Positions 6,057 through 26,077 of a stretch of 41,310 nt of DNA are shown here, one piece after another. The notes under the pieces were generated by a model, which was not told where the DNA came from, made no database searches, and saw only the letters and a program-made list of their open reading frames with translations. Every line of letters begins with the position of its first letter. Position 1 is the stretch's first letter. A program made the translations under genes and the position numbers. This DNA is from Candidatus Bathyarchaeota archaeon (lineage in GTDB: Archaea; Thermoproteota; Bathyarchaeia; Bathyarchaeales; SOJC01), in NCBI GenBank assembly GCA_020345645.1, contig CP070765.1:610440-651749 (forward strand), given 5' to 3'.

Positions 6057-7301
6057 TTAGGAGCCGGCTTTCTCAGCTTTTCCCAGCAGGTTCATAAGGA
6101 TAGGCATCAAGTCCACGCCGCGAATTCTACCTAATCCTCCGCGACCACACGGTCGCTCGCCAAATTCACCGACGTCGTCTCGGCGGACATTGGGTCCTGA
6201 AATAGCGAGTGGAACCGGTTCCCCACTATGTTCACCCTTCACGGAAGACGTGGTGTGATCGGCAGTCACAGCGAGAAAGACGTCTTCAGAGTCAATGTGC
6301 TGAAGTAGGTAAGCCACGAGGACGTCGACTTTTTCGATCATCTGAATCTTCTTCTGCGGGTTACGATCATGACTCGCCAAGTCCGTGGCTTTCACATGTA
6401 CCAGTACGAAGTCGAAACGTTGTAGCGACGTGATCGCAGCCTGCGCTTTCGCCTTGGTCTCTGTTTCATATGTTCCGTTACCGCCTTCAACGTTGATCAG
6501 GCGCATTCCTGCCGCCTTACACACCCCTTTCACAAGGGGAACCGCAGCGATTGCGGCAGGGTGGATCCCGTAGAGAAGCGAGAGAGGGTCAAGTTCAGGC
6601 AACGTTCCGACGCCCCTGAAGAGAACCGCGTTGGCTACTGGAAGCCCGTTACTCGCTCGCCGTTTGTTAACGGGATGATCGGTCAATGCATCATGTAGCT
6701 GCAAAGTAAGGGTGTTTAACACGTTGGCTGTGTGCTCAGCTTCCGGGTTTTCATCCAAGGCGTGCGCCTGAAGAACCTTCTGCCCGGTCCTGTGAGGGTC
6801 CGTATCCGAGACGAATGCTGACAGCTTGGGACCACTCAAGCGAAGGATAGCCCGATGTTGGACAGTGTTCGTGAAGAGGATATCTCCGACTTCAGGAGGA
6901 TTCATTTTGATGGATTCCTGGATAGCCGCAGTCAACGTAGCAGCTTCCTCACTAGTGATTCGCCCAGCTCTACGATCCAGCACAATGAAGTCAGCGTCAA
7001 CTGTGGCGAAGTTGCAGCGAAAAGCCAAGTCGTTTGGCAGAATATCGACACCGGAGCCGATGGCTTCAAGAGCGCCCCGTCCGGTATAGGACTCGATTAA
7101 GTCATAACCCAAGAGGGCAAGGTGAGCGGTATCGCTTCCCGGAGGGATTCCTGGACCAATGACGTCGACTAGACCGCAGATGCCCTTCTTCGCGATCTCG
7201 TCGAGGCTGGGCACCTCAGCGGCTTCGAGCGGAGTCCTCCCTTTCAGTGCCTTCAGAGGAACATCGGCCATTCCATCGGCAATAACGAGAATTGCCTTCA
7301 C
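6057..7301 (-). CDS. apgM: Cofactor-independent phosphoglycerate mutase, archaeal type
   Basis: The N-terminus MKAILVIADGMADVP and the later TADHTT..GEHSGEPVP metal-site blocks are characteristic of ApgM (alkaline phosphatase superfamily). The product is 414 aa. Confidence 0.9.
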   Translation of the reverse strand: MKAILVIADGMADVPLKALKGRTPLEAAEVPSLDEIAKKGICGLVDVIGPGIPPGSDTAHLALLGYDLIESYTGRGALEAIGSGVDILPNDLAFRCNFATVDADFIVLDRRAGRITSEEAATLTAAIQESIKMNPPEVGDILFTNTVQHRAILRLSGPKLSAFVSDTDPHRTGQKVLQAHALDENPEAEHTANVLNTLTLQLHDALTDHPVNKRRASNGLPVANAVLFRGVGTLPELDPLSLLYGIHPAAIAAVPLVKGVCKAAGMRLINVEGGNGTYETETKAKAQAAITSLQRFDFVLVHVKATDLASHDRNPQKKIQMIEKVDVLVAYLLQHIDSEDVFLAVTADHTTSSVKGEHSGEPVPLAISGPNVRRDDVGEFGERPCGRGGLGRIRGVDLMPILMNLLGKAEKAGS

Positions 7302-7385
7302 AGAGAGACCTCAGTCACGCTTTCTGTTAACAGAATGAGTGGAAAGCTATTAGAATTATCGTCTCGATCAACAGTTAAACATGGT

Positions 7386-7793
7386 TCACAACGCGGTGGT
7401 CAGTTCACTGACCTTCATCTTGATCTGATCAAAGATCCGTTTCGTGTGACCATGGGGGAGAAAGTATGGGTCGTCGATGTTCCAAACCGTAATTCGATCG
7501 GTGCATTCAGGGCATTCAGCTGAGATGAATGCTTTGTGTCGAGGTTTCATAGCGATAATTAAATCGTAACTGGCAAGGTTTTTCTGCTGCAAGCCTTCGG
7601 GGGTCTGCTTTAAGAACTGGAGGGCTGCTTCATCTTTCAGATATTCCTTAGCAGCTACCGAAATAGGGATCGCCGGGTCGGTTCCAGCCGAGTCAACATC
7701 AACGGAAGGGTGGAGCTTCCTGAGTAAAGCCTCTGCTACCGGACTCCGATATGCGTTACCTGAACAGACGAAGAGGATCTTCATTTGAGCCAC
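7386..7793 (-). CDS. Low-molecular-weight protein-tyrosine phosphatase / ArsC-like phosphatase
   Basis: The CX5R(S) P-loop is present in ILFVCSGNAYRSP, and a downstream DP general-acid motif (NIDDPYF) is seen. The product is 135 aa. Confidence 0.85.
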   Translation of the reverse strand: MAQMKILFVCSGNAYRSPVAEALLRKLHPSVDVDSAGTDPAIPISVAAKEYLKDEAALQFLKQTPEGLQQKNLASYDLIIAMKPRHKAFISAECPECTDRITVWNIDDPYFLPHGHTKRIFDQIKMKVSELTTAL

Positions 7794-7850
7794 TTAGACT
7801 AAGCCATCTCCATATAAACATTGTAGATGGAGAGCAGTAAAACTGCAGGA

Positions 7851-8420
7851 TTATTCAGTTAGTTGCTTCCGCTTCTTTCTCAGATGGTCGAAGAGAGTCT
7901 TACCAATCAATGTCTCAATCTGGTTCTCAGCGGTGCACCAGAAGGGTTCAAGAGCGTCACGATTGAACCCTGCTTCTTCATATTCCAGTGCCTGCATCAC
8001 CATCTCGATCCGGTCGATGTCCTTCGCTAGGATCGCTTCAGGAGTCGTTTGCGCTTCAAATTCCTGCCATAGGAGAAAGTAACGTTCCTTCAAGTCACTT
8101 GGTAACAGGGATAGGAGTTGTTTAATCGCCTTTTTCTCGAGTTGCTTGACTTTCGAAGAGCCTGTGCGTTCCTTGGCAAAGAGATCGTAGTCGCCCGTCA
8201 GTGCTTCCTGTACATCGTGGAGAAGCAACATTCGAATGAGTTTATCGGCATTCATCTCCGCCAGATCGCCAAGGCACATCGCTAAGACTGCACATCTGAA
8301 GCTGTGGTCAGCAATCGACTCAGCTTTCTCCATGTTTACGTGTGAAACCCAGCCTGATCTCGCAGTTGTCTTCAATCGCCCCACATGGCGCGTGAATTTG
8401 AGCACGTTCTGAATGGTCAC
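7851..8420 (-). CDS. HD-domain phosphohydrolase (YfbR-like 5'-deoxynucleotidase family)
   Basis: The H...HD...D pattern is seen in ADHSFRCAVLA and LLLHDVQEALTGD. The product is 189 aa. Confidence 0.75.
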   Translation of the reverse strand: MTIQNVLKFTRHVGRLKTTARSGWVSHVNMEKAESIADHSFRCAVLAMCLGDLAEMNADKLIRMLLLHDVQEALTGDYDLFAKERTGSSKVKQLEKKAIKQLLSLLPSDLKERYFLLWQEFEAQTTPEAILAKDIDRIEMVMQALEYEEAGFNRDALEPFWCTAENQIETLIGKTLFDHLRKKRKQLTE

Positions 8421-8566
8421 AGATGAATCCCCTTTGTAGGAGATATTGTATATGGTGATAGCAAAGACGCTTTCGCTTCGAGGTTCACATACGTAAACGT
8501 GTGAGAAGGAAAAACACGGTACGTTTATGTTCTAGAAAAGACATCTATATTATATCTGGAGAAGGC

Positions 8567-8833
8567 ATGAATTCTAACCTCCTTTCGAAAAGAAGGGGCG
8601 TTCTCGCAATTTCAATCGACATTCTAAAGGAGGCTAATTCAGGCGCTGGGAAGACGCGTTTGCTCTACTCAGTGGGTTTGAGTTACGATCAACTCAAGCG
8701 CTATCTTCAGTATCTAACGAATCAAGGCTTCATCAAAGAAGTTGAGGATTGTTATCAGACGACTCAGAAAGGACACCAGTTGATTAATGAGTTTGATTCC
8801 TCCCCGTTGACGCAAAGCATCCTCGCGGTCTGA
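8567..8833 (+). CDS. Small winged-helix DNA-binding protein (archaeal HTH_45-like)
   Basis: The roughly 88-aa product contains ..ILKEANSGAGKTRLLYSVGLSYDQLKRYLQYLTNQGFI.., typical of archaeal wHTH regulators. The start is set at the first ATG (MNSNLL); the ORF is open from 8501. Confidence 0.6.
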   Translation: MNSNLLSKRRGVLAISIDILKEANSGAGKTRLLYSVGLSYDQLKRYLQYLTNQGFIKEVEDCYQTTQKGHQLINEFDSSPLTQSILAV

Positions 8834-22517: not shown

Positions 22518-22916
22518 ATGGACTATGGCAAAATGGACCACACAATAGTCCACTTTGAGATCCCTGCCAACGACGTAGAAAAGCTACGGAAATTCTACTC
22601 AGAGCTTTTCGGATGGAAGATCGAGAAGACACCTGGGCCAATCCCCTATTGGACCATCGAAACGGTTCCAATCGATGAGAACATGATGCCCCTGAGACCC
22701 GGCGTTAATGGAGGGATGTACCCAAAAGTAGACCTGGAGCAGAAGCCTATCAACTACTTCTCGGTTGAGTCAATCGACGAGTGTCTTCGCAACATAGAGA
22801 CCTCAGGGGGAAGGATCGTTCAAGAAAAGCAGGAAGTCACAGGAGTAGGGTGGATCGCAGTCGCCCTCGACCCAGAAGGAAACCGGTTCGCCATCCTGCA
22901 ACCAATGCGTCAATGA
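22518..22916 (+). CDS. VOC (glyoxalase/bleomycin-resistance/dioxygenase) family protein
   Basis: HFEIPANDVEKLRKFYSELFGWKIE and the C-terminal DPEGNRFAILQ are typical VOC beta-alpha-beta-beta-beta modules. The product is 132 aa. Confidence 0.8.
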   Translation: MDYGKMDHTIVHFEIPANDVEKLRKFYSELFGWKIEKTPGPIPYWTIETVPIDENMMPLRPGVNGGMYPKVDLEQKPINYFSVESIDECLRNIETSGGRIVQEKQEVTGVGWIAVALDPEGNRFAILQPMRQ

Positions 22917-23008: not shown

Positions 23009-23443
23009 TTGAACCCAACTGAGAGAGCACAGTTAAAAGACGAGATATTCCGATACTTCGTCGAACAACAACACATCTCTCTCGCCACGGTTGAGGGGAA
23101 TCAGCCTCGAGTTAGACCCGTGACCCTAATCTATCTTCGTGACGACTTCTACGTTGCTACGGGTTCAGGCGATGCGAAAACGAGCCAGATCCAGAGCAAT
23201 CCCCGAGTCGAATTCAGCCTTCTCGTTGAGCAAGGCGAATCCAGAGGCACAATTCGAGCAGAATGCGAAGCTAGCCTAGTGAAAGACGCGGAGATCCGAA
23301 CACACATCTTCGAGAAGATTCCTTTTATGAAAGAGTTCTTCAAAACCCCAGAAGATCCAAAGTACACCCTGATCAAACTCGAACCAAAAGCTTTCGAATA
23401 CATGAAGCCTGGCAGTATCCAATCCCAAAAGATCAAGCTTTGA
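23009..23443 (+). CDS. Pyridoxamine 5'-phosphate oxidase-like FMN-binding split-barrel protein
   Basis: The product is 144 aa with ..ISLATVEGNQPRVRPVTLIY..DDFYVATGSGDAKTSQI..NPRVEF, typical of the family. The start codon is TTG. Confidence 0.7.
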   Translation: MNPTERAQLKDEIFRYFVEQQHISLATVEGNQPRVRPVTLIYLRDDFYVATGSGDAKTSQIQSNPRVEFSLLVEQGESRGTIRAECEASLVKDAEIRTHIFEKIPFMKEFFKTPEDPKYTLIKLEPKAFEYMKPGSIQSQKIKL

Positions 23444-23480: not shown

Positions 23481-24377
23481 ATGTCTGAGACGAAGCCCCC
23501 GCCAACTGGAATAAACTCTACACCAAAGAGTCGGGTGAAATTTACCAACTTACAGAAGATCCTGTACCCTGGCCTTAGAGTCGCAAAATACCAAGTTGTC
23601 GAGTACTATCTCAACGTAGCTTCCCGAATGCTGCGTTTTCTTGCAGGAAGACCAGTATCAATGTACAGGTTTCCAGACGGAGTCGGCGAGGCAGGATTCT
23701 ACGAAAAAGACGCACCGAAAGGAAAACCGTTCTGGGTAAAAACCTTCAGCCGGTTCTCTGAAACCGCCAACCGAACACTGGACTACATAGTCTGTGAAGA
23801 CACTGAGACACTCGCTTGGCTCGCAAACCTCGCAGCACTAGAAATTAACATCACCCTCTCCACCATCGAGTCTTATGGTAAACCAGACATGGTTCTCTTT
23901 GACATTGACCCAGAGCCCCCAGCAGGATTCAATGACGCAGTAGAAGTGGCACGCCATCTGAACGAGAAACTGGATCTACTTGGATTCAAATGCTATATCA
24001 AAACCTCCGGGAAAAAAGGGTTACATGTCGCTCTTCCCATCGCAAAGAAGTACACGTTCAGGCAGACTCGGGCGTTCGTCCACCAGATGGGGAGAATCCT
24101 CGGAAAAGAATTCGACCTTGTCGTCTCAGAGTTCTCTCGAACAAAGGACCGAGGGACTGTCTTCGTCGACTACATGCAGAACGTTCAGGGGAAAACGATG
24201 GTATGTCCTTACAGTCTGCGAGCGACGAAGGAAGCATCCGTCTCAACCCCTCTCGAGTGGAGAGAGGTGAAAAAAGGGCTCATCCCTGAAGACCTGAATA
24301 TCTTCAGCGTCGCAAAACGTAAAACCGATCCCTGGAAAGGGTTTTTCGAGAACCAGCAGACCTTAGACTTCACTTAG
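23481..24377 (+). CDS. LigD-type NHEJ polymerase/primase domain protein (stand-alone PolDom, AEP superfamily)
   Basis: Seen are FTNLQKILYP...Y, the catalytic DxD in VLFDIDPEP, SGxxGxH in KTSGKKGLHVALP, and VDYMQNVQGKTMVCPYSLRA. The product is 298 aa. Confidence 0.88.
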   Translation: MSETKPPPTGINSTPKSRVKFTNLQKILYPGLRVAKYQVVEYYLNVASRMLRFLAGRPVSMYRFPDGVGEAGFYEKDAPKGKPFWVKTFSRFSETANRTLDYIVCEDTETLAWLANLAALEINITLSTIESYGKPDMVLFDIDPEPPAGFNDAVEVARHLNEKLDLLGFKCYIKTSGKKGLHVALPIAKKYTFRQTRAFVHQMGRILGKEFDLVVSEFSRTKDRGTVFVDYMQNVQGKTMVCPYSLRATKEASVSTPLEWREVKKGLIPEDLNIFSVAKRKTDPWKGFFENQQTLDFT

Positions 24378-24396
24378 AGAAGAGGATGGCAACGCG

Positions 24397-25461
24397 GTGA
24401 AACTCTACAAGCCCATGCTCCCTAAGAAAGTGAAGAGTCCGTTTTCGTCTGAGGACTGGGTTTTCGAGCTCCAATGGGGCGGGATAAGAGCAATCACGTA
24501 CATCTCCTCGGAAGTTAACATCCGAAGCTCAGACCAGCAAGAGTTGAAAGACTGTTTTCCCGAATTAGAAGAACTGCTGACGCTCCCAGCATCAACAGTC
24601 CTAGACGGGGAAATCGTTATCTTGAAAGATGGAAAGACTGATCAGCGAGCACTCGAAAATAGACTGAAAACACCTATGGAGAATCGCAACGTAGCAACAG
24701 CGAGTTCTCCCCCAACATACATTGTCTTCGATGTTCTCGAAAAAGCCGGCGAATCGCTCGTTGACAAACCGCTGATGCTGCGAAAGCAGATTTTGCAGAG
24801 AATGGTGCAAGGACTCCGATACACCATACCCTCCATCTTCGCAGAGGGAAACGGTGAGACCTACTTTGAAGCAGCCGTGAAAAGCGGGTTCACCAACATC
24901 ATCGGGAAGGAGAAGAACAGTAAATACGAATCAGGCTTTACCAGCGAGAAGTGGTTAGAAATACGTAACGATCAGCAGCCTCAGAAAGAAACCGAGTCGC
25001 CGCTGCAGGAGTATGTACGAAAGAGGGATTTTGGTAGGACAAGCGAACCGAGAGGAGATGAAACGATAGATGAAGCTCCGAGATTCGTTATCCAAGAGCA
25101 TCAGGCCAGGAGTCTTCACTATGACTTTCGTCTATCGCGTGATGGAGTTCTCAAGAGTTGGGCAGTTCCAAAAGGTGTGCCATTGCAGCCGGGAATACGG
25201 AGACTCGCTGTGGAAACAGAAGACCACCCACTTGAATATGGCATGTTTGAGGGCGTTATCCCTAAAGGAGAATATGGTGCGGGAATTGTGAAGATCTGGG
25301 ACAAAGGATCCTATCGACTGAAGATCTGGCACGATGACAAGATCGAGTTCTATTTAGATGGTGAACGAGTCAACGGCATGTACGCGTTGGTAAAACTGAA
25401 GAAGTACAGCCAGCGGAAGCAGGACCAGAATCAATGGCTCCTCATCAGAATGAAGGGTTGA
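24397..25461 (+). CDS. Fusion of a degenerate ATP-dependent DNA ligase nucleotidyltransferase domain (no OB fold) with a LigD 3'-phosphoesterase (PE) domain
   Basis: The C-terminal part reads FVIQEHQARSLHYDFRLSRDGVLKSWAVPKGVP...VETEDHPLEY..FEGVIPKGEYGAGIV, which is the LigD PE domain. The N-terminal roughly 195 aa align to ligase motifs I-V, but motif I is ELQWGGIR instead of ExKWDGxR. The start codon is GTG. Confidence 0.8.
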   Translation: MKLYKPMLPKKVKSPFSSEDWVFELQWGGIRAITYISSEVNIRSSDQQELKDCFPELEELLTLPASTVLDGEIVILKDGKTDQRALENRLKTPMENRNVATASSPPTYIVFDVLEKAGESLVDKPLMLRKQILQRMVQGLRYTIPSIFAEGNGETYFEAAVKSGFTNIIGKEKNSKYESGFTSEKWLEIRNDQQPQKETESPLQEYVRKRDFGRTSEPRGDETIDEAPRFVIQEHQARSLHYDFRLSRDGVLKSWAVPKGVPLQPGIRRLAVETEDHPLEYGMFEGVIPKGEYGAGIVKIWDKGSYRLKIWHDDKIEFYLDGERVNGMYALVKLKKYSQRKQDQNQWLLIRMKG

Positions 25462-25984
25462 AGCTATGACGCCACATCGTCTTCTCCTGCTTCTCGCCTA
25501 CTGTTCGCTCCCGTCGCCCCGTCAACTCCTCCACGTCGATAACAACGCAACAGCATTCTGATGCTCGAGACCTGCTGAATCTTTTCCCACCTTCAGACGT
25601 AGGCTTCCTGTAAGGTTCGCTGTATTTCTCAGCAAACAACTGCAAAAGACGGGTCTTCTCAGCCACATCCTTCTCCACGCGTGCACGACCATAGGCTAAT
25701 ACACTATCGTAATCGAGATGGCATCGCGTCTCATGGTGATCACTTACCGAGCCCACAAATGTATCAACTTCAAAGCAGCAGTTCGGGTTCTCTTCGATGC
25801 TCGCCAGCTTCTTCCCCTCCCAAGCACAGTGAAAAACGATCTTCCCTTCATGGTATAAGAAGTTCAAAGGGATAACGTAAGGCTTCGACCCATGAGCGAG
25901 CCCAATCCGACCGACTTCAGCCCGCCTCAACATCTGCTCCATCTCGGCTAAACCGTTTTCAACGAACACTCCATCATCAGTCAT
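25445..25984 (-). CDS. Pyridoxamine 5'-phosphate oxidase-related FMN-binding protein (Pyridox_ox_2 / NimA-like)
   Basis: ..RAEVGRIGLAHGSKPYVIPLNFLYHEGKIVFHCAWEGKK... is typical of this split-barrel family. The 3' end overlaps the converging ligase/PE gene by 17 nt. Confidence 0.7.
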   Translation of the reverse strand: MTDDGVFVENGLAEMEQMLRRAEVGRIGLAHGSKPYVIPLNFLYHEGKIVFHCAWEGKKLASIEENPNCCFEVDTFVGSVSDHHETRCHLDYDSVLAYGRARVEKDVAEKTRLLQLFAEKYSEPYRKPTSEGGKRFSRSRASECCCVVIDVEELTGRRERTVGEKQEKTMWRHSFNPSF

Positions 25985-26077
25985 AACACACAATCCTCAC
26001 AGTGAATGCATACAAGAGTGATTTAAGATTGTGTGCCGGGCCATTATATTGTATGGAACCAGATCGCGAGTGCTTAC

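What the first reader, a model, noticed from the sequence alone, without database searches (positions are those of the whole stretch)
24397..25461. Catalytically degenerate DNA-ligase domain fused to a LigD 3'-phosphoesterase domain
The N-terminal roughly 195 aa align motif-by-motif with LigD-type ATP-dependent ligase adenylation domains, but the key residues are replaced. Motif I reads ELQWGGIR versus E-x-K-W-D-G-x-R, so the adenylated Lys is Gln and the Asp is Gly. Motif IV reads TNIIGK versus EGvvaK. Motif V reads WLEIR versus WLKvK. Motifs III (VLDGEIV) and IIIa (YIVFDVL) are retained. No OB-fold domain follows; instead a linker leads into an apparently intact PE domain (HYDFRL, EDHPLEY, GEYGAG). 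The ORF is uninterrupted, so this looks like a retained pseudo-enzyme domain, perhaps for DNA-end or nick binding, rather than a decaying pseudogene. The Lig(N)-PE(C) order is also unlike the LigD domain orders I know (PE-Lig-Pol, Pol-PE-Lig, Lig-Pol).
Basis: seen in the sequence. Interest (0 to 1): 0.62.

Follow-up and report, generated by a model that had tools for sequence, protein, structure and literature searches.

The report
Dead ligase relic fused to phosphoesterase
An archaeal DNA-repair gene keeps the folded core of a DNA ligase that can no longer ligate, fused to an intact DNA-end-cleaning enzyme; it is one preserved stage in the stepwise dismantling of an end-joining repair operon.

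Summary
ORF 24397-25461 (+, 354 aa) has a LigD-type ligase nucleotidyltransferase (NTase) domain with no OB domain, fused to an intact LigD 3'-phosphoesterase (PE). The adenylated Lys is Gln, the motif I Asp is Gly, and motifs IV and V are degraded.

- The Lig-then-PE order is not unusual. It is the standard Bathyarchaeial architecture: about 464-aa NTase-OB-PE proteins in Pol-Ku-LigPE operons.
- All 117 such proteins examined keep K and D in motif I.
- The window gene belongs to a rare monophyletic clade of 7 sequence clusters that lost the OB domain once and lost Ku.
- That clade then replaced the catalytic Lys at least three separate times (Q, R, E).
- The relic still evolves under purifying selection. 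dN/dS is about 0.21, with bootstrap intervals below 0.36, against about 0.13 in live ligases.
- The relic is dispensable. A same-genus genome deleted Pol plus its first 144 codons, and related genera carry direct Pol-PE fusions nested in the same PE clade.
- The genome has no Ku and no LigD-type ligase. It has Lig1-type ligases elsewhere.

Most likely this is a Ku-less Pol+PE end-healing module with a non-catalytic ligase relic. I rate it a new variant of a known kind, of moderate interest.

The parts
23481..24377 (+). Stand-alone LigD-type primase-polymerase (Pol) gene, 298 aa, 19 nt upstream of the relic-PE gene
   Evidence: PF21686 E 7.9e-78; TIGR02778 242.5 bits against a cut-off of 214.7. 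DID, SGKKGLH and VDY motifs are visible in the translation. It is the only Pol hit in the genome. A Pol gene sits directly upstream in every OB-less orthologue locus.
24397..25461 (+). Whole ORF: dead NTase relic + linker + PE, 354 aa, GTG start preceded by AGAGGA 8-9 nt upstream. An in-frame ATG at 24415 is an alternative start.
   Evidence: Orthologues start at the equivalent M-K-x-Y-K/Q-P-M. The protein database holds only a 194-aa call from this genome (P0003, GTG at codon 161).
24397..24972 (+). Ligase NTase-domain relic (aa 1-192)
   Evidence: PF01068 at residues 6-187. AlphaFold2 block pLDDT 80-97. Foldseek matches ATP-dependent ligases including Mtu LigD 6NHX/1VS0.
24463..24489 (+). 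Motif I, FELQWGGIR: Q26 (24472-24474) replaces the adenylated Lys and G28 (24478-24480) replaces Asp
   Evidence: K and D are present in 117/117 full-length relatives.
24598..24618 (+). Motif III, VLDGEIV (retained)
   Evidence: D70, G71 and E72 are invariant in all 7 relic proteins.
24715..24735 (+). Motif IIIa, TYIVFDV (retained)
24886..24909 (+). Motif IV, GFTNIIGK (E166T, G167N, A170G; K171 kept)
24952..24966 (+). Motif V, WLEIR (K188E, K190R). The OB domain and motif VI of full-length relatives would follow here and are absent.
   Evidence: There is a gap of about 110 columns relative to the 464-aa relatives.
24973..24993 (+). Flexible linker (aa 193-199)
   Evidence: pLDDT below 50 at residues 194-199.
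24994..25461 (+). LigD 3'-phosphoesterase: N-peptide (aa 200-227, LQEYVRKRDF...EP) and beta-barrel core (aa 228-335) with HxxxxxHYDFR and EDHPLEY, then a C-terminal tail
   Evidence: PF13298 E 2.6e-39; TIGR02777 above cut-off. PDB 3P43 E 1.3e-42; fold TM 0.94-0.96 to 3P43/3P4H. 57 of 64 conserved positions are invariant in the clade. dN/dS 0.04 against G038.
23561..24828 (.). Segment absent from the syntenic locus of the same-genus genome G038: most of Pol plus relic codons 1-144
   Evidence: blastn of L013 against the window; ORF list of L013.

Best explanation
The gene is a reduced descendant of the Bathyarchaeial LigD-type Lig-PE gene, whose operon is normally Pol - Ku - [NTase-OB-PE].

Inferred history:
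- In one lineage Ku was lost and the OB domain, with motif VI, was deleted once.
- By established ligase enzymology, loss of OB/motif VI abolishes self-adenylylation. After that the nucleophilic Lys and the motif Ia, IV and V residues were free to drift.
- What remains is a well-folded but catalytically dead NTase domain. It is the N-terminal module of a fully intact 3'-phosphoesterase and is co-transcribed with an intact Pol.

Shown here: the domain architecture, the residue losses, the single origin of the clade, the purifying selection on the relic, the absence of Ku and of any LigD-type ligase from the genome, and the repeated later loss of the relic.

Inferred working mechanism:
- The PE removes 3'-phosphates and 3'-ribonucleotides.
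- The Pol fills short gaps.
- Nick sealing is left to the genome's Lig1-type ligases.
- The relic does no chemistry. It persists as a structural or adaptor module of the PE polypeptide. Its most plausible accessory role is to hold PE together with Pol, because the lineages that lost the relic either fused Pol covalently to PE or lost Pol in the same deletion.
For: Architecture and dead motifs.

Ancestral state:
- 464-475-aa NTase-OB-PE proteins sit in Pol-Ku-LigPE-DUF72 operons (also G017/G130).
- K and D of motif I are present in 117/117 of them.

Single origin and later Lys loss:
- The 7 OB-less proteins form one clade (UFboot 100 / SH-aLRT 99; 100% of 200 bootstrap trees) with three deep sublineages.
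- Lys26 reads Q,Q / R,K / E,K,E across them, which needs at least three independent replacements.

Selection on the relic:
- dN/dS of the relic is 0.22 and 0.21 in two independent pairs at dS about 0.58. Bootstrap 95% intervals are 0.14-0.36 and 0.12-0.35.
- PE in the same pairs gives 0.13 and 0.11.
- In 15 full-length control pairs the medians are NTase 0.127 (range 0.08-0.21), OB 0.21 and PE 0.085.
- Relaxation is real but partial. At PE identity 0.75-0.80, NTase identity is 0.65 +/- 0.04 between live ligases, against 0.45-0.48 for the window versus P0004/P0005.
- 41 of 73 conserved NTase positions remain invariant in the clade, against 57 of 64 in PE.

Fold: pLDDT 91.3, with both domains confident.

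Genome content:
- No Ku.
- One Pol and one PE.
- The other PF01068 hits are Lig1-type ligases of 619 and 597 aa, plus one cut by an N run, all with intact KxDG.
- Ku is present in only 3 of 25 genomes of the family, each time beside an NTase match in a Lig-sized open frame; one of these (G102) carries an in-frame stop.

Dispensability and the link with Pol:
- G038 has one deletion that removes Pol plus relic codons 1-144.
- Five genera of the same family have direct Pol-PE fusions. Their PE groups with the relic clade at 99/97 support.
Against: - No biochemistry, expression data or interaction data exist.
- dN/dS could not be measured in the window's own lineage, because the DNA of P0002 was not retrievable.
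- That lineage has the longest stem branch (0.56) and the weakest PF01068 score. Its sister species has dropped the relic. The relic may therefore already be neutral here.
- In contig L041 the Pol is a pseudogene while the relic-PE ORF is intact. That does not fit a strictly Pol-dependent role.
- Adenosine-pocket residues (R31, E72, F111, K171) are invariant in 7/7. This could point to a retained ligand-binding function rather than a mere scaffold.
- pTM of 0.58 gives no defined NTase-PE interface.
Confidence: 0.6

Rival explanations
1. In this genome the relic is a functionally neutral leftover on its way out. The ORF stays open only because a frameshift or stop upstream would cut off translation of the essential PE, or only the C-terminal PE part is made from an internal start.
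For: - The window copy is the most degenerate of the clade. PF01068 scores 64.4 bits, against 100.4 for P0005 and 136.5 for a live ligase. It differs at 17 of 73 conserved NTase positions, against 2 of 64 in PE.
- The stem branch of the P0001/P0002 pair is the longest internal branch (0.56).
- The ratio of amino-acid differences, relic to PE, is 19%:7% for P0001/P0002. In the other pairs it is 24%:13% and 24%:16%.
- The same-genus genome G038 deleted codons 1-144 and keeps PE under strong selection (dN/dS 0.04).
- The truncated 211-aa form P0036 has 17 member sequences.
- The protein database holds only a 194-aa call for this gene (P0003).
Against: - P0001 and P0002 still share 81% identity over the relic, with no frameshift or stop in either.
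- The relic keeps 45-52% identity to the other OB-less sublineages and a mean of 46% (at most 50%) to live ligases.
- dN/dS is 0.21-0.22 in the two sister sublineages.
- The model is confidently folded.
- The GTG start has a Shine-Dalgarno-like AGAGGA and lines up with the orthologues' start.
- The 47-codon relic tail that G038 retains gives dN/dS 0.28 against the window, though this is a noisy estimate.
Confidence: 0.2
2. The relic is a true pseudo-enzyme with a specific retained binding function. It could be an adenine-nucleotide sensor or a reader of DNA 5' ends that steers or gates the PE and the Pol.
For: - Residues that line the adenosine pocket in ligases are invariant in 7/7 relic proteins: E24, R31, D70/E72, F111/D112, K171, K173. 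The phosphate- and catalysis-facing residues K26, D28, K188 and K190 are lost. The assignment of these roles comes from my knowledge of ligase structures.
- Persistence across three deep sublineages at dN/dS about 0.2.
Against: - The same residues also hold the fold together, so their conservation is not specific evidence for ligand binding.
- The motif Ia Arg, R182 and the motif V lysines, which contact DNA or ATP phosphates in live ligases, are gone.
- The relic was lost at least twice without loss of PE.
- No ligand or DNA binding can be tested with these tools.
Confidence: 0.15
3. The domain is still an active ligase. It would use another lysine, or an OB domain supplied in trans.
For: The NTase fold is intact and motifs III and IIIa are kept. 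Two clade members (P0005, P0007) still have the motif I Lys.
Against: - The alignment register at motif I is unambiguous against 1VS0, 6NHX and 117 relatives. No alternative Lys lies in the loop.
- Motifs IV and V are degraded, and motif VI/OB is absent.
- No stand-alone LigD-type OB or ligase exists in the genome.
- The Lys is replaced by Q, R or E in five of the seven proteins.
Confidence: 0.03

Closest known systems
Bathyarchaeial bifunctional Lig-PE ('LigD-like ligase / 3'-phosphoesterase', about 464 aa) in Pol-Ku-LigPE operons
   Same: Direct homologue. The domain order is the same, NTase first and PE last. Identity is about 46-50% in the NTase domain and 55-62% by BLASTP over the PE half. 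The same stand-alone Pol gene lies upstream.
   Different: The window protein lacks the roughly 110-aa OB domain and motif VI. It lacks the motif I Lys and Asp and the motif IV and V residues. Its operon lacks Ku.
Bacterial LigD (M. tuberculosis Pol-PE-Lig; P. aeruginosa PE-Lig-Pol; B. subtilis Lig-Pol)
   Same: The same three domain families, with matches to PRK09632 and PRK05972. The PE active site is identical to PaePE. The NTase domain aligns to Mtu LigDom.
   Different: The domain order differs and Pol is a separate gene. The ligase half is dead and has no OB domain. There is no Ku partner. Scores are far below the equivalog cut-offs (287 against 989).
Methanocella paludicola archaeal NHEJ (separate Ku, Lig, Pol and PE; Bartlett et al. 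2013/2016, cited in PMC8656161 and PMC7719229)
   Same: An archaeal LigD-type Pol and PE encoded as parts of one repair module. The PE fold matches 5DMP.
   Different: Methanocella has Ku and an active ligase. Here both are missing, and a dead ligase domain is fused to PE.
Stand-alone archaeal PE enzymes (Candidatus Korarchaeum CkoPE 3P4H, Methanosarcina barkeri MbaPE 3P43; PMC3082917)
   Same: The PE core is 52-54% identical, with TM 0.94-0.96. They show that PE can work as an end-healing enzyme without Ku or a ligase in cis. Stand-alone PE is also the commonest state in this archaeal order.
   Different: The window PE carries the full N-peptide and a 195-aa dead ligase domain at its N-terminus.
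Pol-PE direct fusions of sister genera
   Same: Their PE belongs to the same clade as the relic-PE proteins (99/97 support). They share a longer C-terminal tail, about 5 residues more than in full-length Lig-PE; two relic proteins (P0006, P0011) lack it. They also lack Ku.
   Different: They have no NTase relic at all. Pol is joined to PE by a linker of about 35 aa.

Membership tests
ATP-dependent DNA ligase, LigD LigDom type (PF01068 + PF04679; TIGR02779) | NTase-domain sequence and fold homology | tested here: met
   PF01068 E 1.5e-17, above the cut-off. phmmer to 1VS0 E 2e-10. Foldseek hits to ligases at E about 1e-13 or better.
ATP-dependent DNA ligase, LigD LigDom type (PF01068 + PF04679; TIGR02779) | Motif I KxDG with the adenylated lysine | tested here: not met
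   LQWGG lines up with GKWDG of Mtu LigD. K and D are present in 117/117 full-length relatives.
ATP-dependent DNA ligase, LigD LigDom type (PF01068 + PF04679; TIGR02779) | C-terminal OB domain with motif VI | tested here: not met
   No PF04679 hit. The TIGR02779 match stops at model position 188 of 302, and 112 bits falls below the cut-off of 227.75. There is a gap of about 110 columns in the alignment.
ATP-dependent DNA ligase, LigD LigDom type (PF01068 + PF04679; TIGR02779) | Motifs IV (EGxxxK) and V (xLKxK) | tested here: not met
   TNIIGK and WLEIR.
ATP-dependent DNA ligase, LigD LigDom type (PF01068 + PF04679; TIGR02779) | Self-adenylylation and nick sealing | not testable with these tools
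   Needs purified protein.
LigD 3'-phosphoesterase (PF13298; TIGR02777) | Sequence above the curated cut-offs | tested here: met
   PF13298 134.1 bits against 31.1. TIGR02777 183.6 against 144.
LigD 3'-phosphoesterase (PF13298; TIGR02777) | Six essential active-site residues (PaePE H42, H48, D50, R52, H84, Y88) and N-peptide R14/D15/E21 | tested here: met
   H235, H241, D243, R245, H277, Y281 and R210, D211, E217 are aligned to 2LJ6/3N9B. They are invariant or nearly invariant across the alignments (D211 is at 90% or more).
LigD 3'-phosphoesterase (PF13298; TIGR02777) | Beta-barrel PE fold | tested here: met
   The AF2 model matches 3P43/3P4H with TM 0.94-0.96 and rmsd 1.0-1.3 A. This is a predicted structure.
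LigD 3'-phosphoesterase (PF13298; TIGR02777) | Mn-dependent 3'-phosphatase and 3'-ribonucleoside resection activity | not testable with these tools
   Needs an assay.
Prokaryotic Ku/LigD NHEJ system | Ku gene in the operon or genome | tested here: not met
   No PF02735 hit in the 1.51-Mb genome, which is estimated about 71% complete. None lies between Pol and the relic-PE gene in any orthologue locus. Ku is present in 3 of 25 genomes of the family.
Prokaryotic Ku/LigD NHEJ system | Active LigD-type ligase | tested here: not met
   The only other PF01068 hits are Lig1-type proteins with N-terminal DNA-binding domains.
Prokaryotic Ku/LigD NHEJ system | LigD-type primase-polymerase | tested here: met
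   The ORF at 23481-24377 matches PF21686 at E 7.9e-78 and scores above the TIGR02778 cut-off.

The most novel reading that the evidence does not exclude
The dead NTase domain is a selected pseudo-enzyme. It would act as a non-catalytic adaptor or sensor, either docking Pol or reading an adenine nucleotide or a 5' end. It would couple the PE and Pol activities in a Ku-independent, ligase-in-trans repair pathway for 3'-blocked breaks. The Pol-PE fusions of sister genera would then be the covalent solution to the same coupling problem. If so, it would be an example of a ligase-derived pseudo-enzyme with a defined role, and would define a widespread archaeal 'Pol+PE' repair module distinct from NHEJ.
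Probability: 0.2. Interest if true: 0.6.

Novelty: new variant of a known kind. Interest (0 to 1): 0.45.

Why it matters
LigD-type repair is usually treated as Ku plus a live ligase. This locus and its relatives preserve an ordered series of loss:
- first Ku and the OB domain
- then the catalytic lysine, lost three separate times
- then the whole ligase core or the Pol.

The 3'-phosphoesterase is the one part that is always kept. Three things follow.
- In these archaea, PE (usually with Pol) has a selected role outside classical end joining.
- The series is a clean natural experiment on how a catalytic domain decays after an obligatory partner domain is lost.
- Annotation pipelines need a warning. 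Proteins like this one match 'ATP-dependent DNA ligase / LigD' models although they cannot ligate, so genomes could be scored wrongly as NHEJ-proficient.

The practical value is modest. The organisms are uncultured and the clade is small, at 7 clusters in a database of 5.8 billion.

Tried and rejected
- **Another lysine at motif I.** Rejected. The register is fixed by flanking invariant residues (F23, E24, W27, G29, R31) against 1VS0, 6NHX and 117 relatives.
- **Sequencing or assembly artefact.** Rejected. An independent contig (P0002) has the same architecture, synteny and Gln.
- **Unusual domain order as a novelty.** Rejected. It is the norm in Bathyarchaeia.
- **DNA of P0002, for dN/dS in the window's own lineage.** Not obtained. 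The sample file was too large, and the single metagenome scan returned only more distant, mostly full-length loci.
- **More members of the OB-less clade.** A search with the NTase region alone and a profile search with the clade alignment found none beyond the six known clusters. Scores drop from 618 bits or more to 504.
- **Promoter and terminator scan.** Uninformative, because it is a bacterial sigma-70 model applied to an archaeon.
- **Literature searches.** I found no paper describing Bathyarchaeial Lig-PE proteins, OB-less dead derivatives or ligase pseudo-enzymes of this kind. Absence from this library is not proof that none exists.
- **Structure prediction of a Pol:relic-PE complex.** Not possible with the single-chain tool.
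Full report
**1. What is there**

The window carries two co-directional genes 19 nt apart.
- ORF 23481-24377 (298 aa) is a LigD-type primase-polymerase. It matches PF21686 at E 7.9e-78 and scores above the TIGR02778 cut-off.
- ORF 24397-25461 (354 aa, GTG start with AGAGGA 8-9 nt upstream) has two domains:
  - an ATP-dependent ligase NTase domain at residues 6-187 (PF01068, E 1.5e-17)
  - a LigD 3'-phosphoesterase at residues 233-333 (PF13298, E 2.6e-39).
- There is no OB/DNA_ligase_A_C hit. NCBIfam agrees. The PE domain model scores above its cut-off. The NHEJ ligase domain model reaches only positions 2-188 of 302, at half the required score.

An AlphaFold2 model built on a 78-sequence alignment is confident for both domains (mean pLDDT 91.3). 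It has a disordered hinge at residues 194-199, and pTM of 0.58 leaves the relative domain orientation undefined. Foldseek matches the C-terminal half to archaeal PEs (3P43 and 3P4H, TM 0.94-0.96). It matches the N-terminal half to ATP-dependent ligases, including M. tuberculosis LigD.

**2. The motif claims**

phmmer against PDB sequences aligns FELQWGGIR of the window with FEGKWDGYR of the M. tuberculosis LigD ligase domain (1VS0). The K-to-M mutant chain 6NHX has its M at the same column. Gln26 therefore occupies the position of the adenylated lysine, and Gly28 the position of the motif I Asp.

I then aligned 117 full-length relatives retrieved from the protein database. All 117 have K and D at these columns, a motif IV of the form GxEGxxAK, and nearly all have WLKIK at motif V. 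The window has GFTNIIGK and WLEIR. Motifs III and IIIa are intact.

The PE half keeps all six essential active-site residues of Pseudomonas PE. It also keeps the N-peptide Arg/Asp/Glu that bacterial PE needs for its monoesterase activity (role of the N-peptide from PMC3082917).

**3. Where it comes from**

The homologues are from Bathyarchaeota/Bathyarchaeia (names given by sources). The bulk of them are 456-478-aa proteins with the order NTase - OB - PE (for P0010). Many are annotated as bifunctional LigD.

Four loci fetched for two of these proteins, plus two complete genomes, show the operon Pol - Ku - [NTase-OB-PE]. In the four fetched loci a DUF72 gene follows. An earlier first-stage note in this scan (e1-3383701) describes the same operon in another genome.

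**4. A small OB-less clade**

Six database clusters (P0002, P0004-P0007, P0011; 345-352 aa) share the window's exact architecture. A profile search with these sequences found no others in 5.8 billion clusters. The score falls from 618 bits or more to 504 for the first full-length protein.

On a tree of the shared NTase+PE columns, the seven proteins form one clade. Support is UFboot 100 / SH-aLRT 99, and the clade appears in 100% of 200 bootstrap trees. It has three deep sublineages. The OB domain was therefore lost once.

In every locus that could be read, a Pol gene lies directly upstream and Ku is missing.

Within the clade the motif I Lys reads Q,Q | R,K | E,K,E, and the Asp reads G,D | N,N | G,D,G. 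Mapped on the tree, this needs at least three independent replacements of the nucleophile after the OB loss.

Established ligase enzymology (my knowledge of the Chlorella virus ligase and LigD literature) says that motif VI in the OB domain is required for ligase-AMP formation. Loss of OB would already have abolished ligation, which freed the catalytic residues to drift. The order of events seen on the tree fits that.

**5. Is the relic decaying or retained?**

Both, to different degrees.

*Relaxation.*
- Take the 73 NTase positions that are at least 90% conserved in 67 full-length proteins. Of these, 41 are invariant in the seven relic proteins and 16 are changed in four or more of them.
- The changed set includes K26, D28, motif Ia R45/N46 (7/7), E139/G140 (7/7), E166/G167, R182, K188 (6/7) and K190.
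- In the PE half, 57 of 64 such positions are invariant and 2 are changed.
- At equal PE divergence (identity 0.75-0.80), NTase identity is 0.65 +/- 0.04 between live ligases. It is 0.45-0.48 between the window and P0004/P0005.

*Constraint.*
- Nei-Gojobori dN/dS of the relic is 0.22 (P0004/P0005) and 0.21 (P0006/P0011), at an unsaturated dS of about 0.58.
- The bootstrap 95% intervals are 0.14-0.36 and 0.12-0.35.
- In 15 control pairs of full-length genes, the NTase median is 0.127 (range 0.08-0.21), OB 0.21 and PE 0.085.
- The relic is thus under purifying selection about as strong as that on the OB domain of live ligases. It is not a neutral pseudogene in those lineages.

*The window's own lineage looks weaker.*
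- It has the longest stem branch (0.56).
- It has the lowest PF01068 score: 64 bits, against 100 for P0005 and 136 for a live ligase.
- It has the highest relic-to-PE ratio of amino-acid differences.
- I could not compute dN/dS here, because the DNA of P0002 was not retrievable.

**6. The relic is dispensable**

- The same-genus genome G038 has the same synteny: radical SAM, PNPOx, then PE and a PNPOx-like gene. It lacks window positions 23561-24828. That is most of Pol plus relic codons 1-144, removed in one deletion of about 1.27 kb. A 211-aa tail-plus-PE ORF remains. Its PE is under strong selection, with dN/dS 0.04 against the window. This truncated form (P0036) has 17 member sequences in the database.
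- Five other genera of the same family encode direct Pol-PE fusion proteins of 458-565 aa open frame, with PF21686 + PF13298 and no NTase. On a PE tree these fusions, the G038 form and the seven relic proteins form one clade (99/97 support). Full-length Lig-PE and stand-alone PE fall outside it. Most of the clade also shares a longer C-terminal tail, about 5 residues more than in full-length Lig-PE; two relic proteins (P0006, P0011) lack it. An NTase domain homologous to that of the live ligases cannot be regained, so the relic state is ancestral to this clade and the relic was lost at least twice.
- In the contig carrying P0004, the Pol gene has two frameshifts, two stops and a His-to-Tyr change in motif II. 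The adjacent relic-PE ORF is intact.
- PE is the only constant across all these forms.

**7. Genome context**

The window's genome is one 1.51-Mb contig, estimated about 71% complete.
- It has no Ku.
- It has one Pol and one PE.
- Apart from the relic, its only PF01068 hits are Lig1-type ligases with intact KxDG. These are 619 aa, 597 aa, and a third ORF cut by a run of N.

In the taxonomic family, Ku occurs in 3 of 25 genomes, all in one genus. Each time it lies next to an NTase match in a Lig-sized open frame, and one of these (G102) carries an in-frame stop.

**8. Mechanism proposed**

*Shown:* a dead, OB-less ligase core fused to an intact PE; an intact Pol co-encoded upstream; no Ku; no LigD-type ligase.

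*Inferred:* the module performs 3'-end healing and short gap filling. PE removes 3'-phosphate and 3'-ribonucleotides, and Pol fills the gap. The Lig1-type ligases seal the nick. The relic contributes no chemistry.

Its persistence at dN/dS of about 0.2 argues for a structural or adaptor role. Two patterns are compatible with a role in keeping PE together with Pol, and neither proves it:
- lineages without the relic either fuse Pol covalently to PE, or
- they lose Pol in the same deletion.

The L041 case (Pol dead, relic intact) does not fit neatly.

The relic has lost the motif Ia Arg, R182 and the motif V lysines. A residual adenosine pocket (R31, E72, F111, K171, all 7/7) leaves a nucleotide-sensing role open.

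**9. Comparison with what is known, and novelty**

The protein is a member of the LigD PE family. All testable features are met.

It is not a member of the functional DNA ligase family. The nucleophile, motifs IV to VI and the OB domain were tested and are not met.

The locus is not an NHEJ system, because it has no Ku and no ligase.

The papers I could search describe bacterial LigD domain orders, the Methanocella four-gene system and stand-alone archaeal PEs. These were the LigD structural review PMC8656161, the NHEJ comparative analysis PMC7719229 and the archaeal PE study PMC3082917. None describes an OB-less dead ligase fused to PE, or Bathyarchaeial Pol-PE fusions.

An earlier, unchecked note of this scan (e1-1530890) reports a dead internal ligase module in a bacterial LigD. 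Ligase death inside LigD-type proteins may therefore be recurrent. I did not test that note.

I rate this a new variant of a known kind. It is a tidy evolutionary story of moderate interest to DNA-repair and pseudo-enzyme specialists, and a caveat for annotation.

**10. Limits**

- There is no expression or biochemical evidence.
- The clade is small, at seven clusters.
- dN/dS rests on two pairs and a simple counting method.
- The genome may be incomplete, so the absence of Ku is strong but not absolute.
- The start codon of the ORF is inferred from orthologue alignment and an SD-like motif. The protein database holds only a 194-aa call from this genome (P0003).

Noticed in passing
L014:562-1971(-), L015:1498-2901(-), L016:1498-2952(-), L017:1498-2871(-), L021:1465-3159(-): Five genera of the window's family encode direct LigD Pol-PE fusion proteins of about 458-485 aa (one open frame of 565 aa). 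They have no ligase domain, and none of the five genomes has Ku. Their PE groups with the relic-PE clade. I found no description of this architecture in the papers searched.
   Followed up: partly
L013 (genome G038, same genus), equivalent to window 23561-24828: One deletion of about 1.27 kb removes most of Pol and the first 144 codons of the relic, leaving a 211-aa tail-plus-PE ORF (P0036, 17 member sequences). The glyoxalase-like gene and the small Cys-rich ORF between the radical SAM gene and the PNPOx gene are also absent there.
   Followed up: yes
L041:987-1863: The Pol gene upstream of P0004 is a pseudogene. It has two frameshifts, two in-frame stops and a motif II His-to-Tyr change. The adjacent relic-PE ORF is intact.
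   Followed up: yes
window 24877-25461: The protein database holds only a 194-aa product for this gene from the window's genome (P0003, GTG at codon 161). The gene caller therefore missed, or rejected, the N-terminal ligase relic.
   Followed up: partly
window 22518-22916 and 23009-23443; 25445-25993(-): A glyoxalase/bleomycin-resistance-family gene (including a Ble-like_N hit, E 2.3e-8) and two PNPOx-family flavoprotein genes flank the Pol/relic-PE pair. The same genes flank it in the P0002 contig. Bleomycin-type damage leaves 3'-blocked ends, so a functional link to an end-healing module is conceivable but untested.
   Followed up: no
L004:817-1797 (G000:C1 about 479113-480093): A third Lig1-type ligase ORF with an intact motif I (KLDG) is cut by a run of N. 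The next gene is a thiolase-like gene on the other strand. This is either an assembly gap or a masked stretch.
   Followed up: no
G102:C9:201708-202274 (not fetched): In one Ku-bearing genome of the family, the LigD-type NTase match next to Ku contains an in-frame TAA within a 210-aa open frame. This may be another ligase in decay.
   Followed up: no
L005:3196-4284(-) and 7185-8681(+): In the complete genome CP070649, the Pol/relic-PE pair sits between a Y-family (DinB/IMS) polymerase gene and a type IB topoisomerase gene. This is a DNA-damage-related neighbourhood different from that of the window.
   Followed up: no
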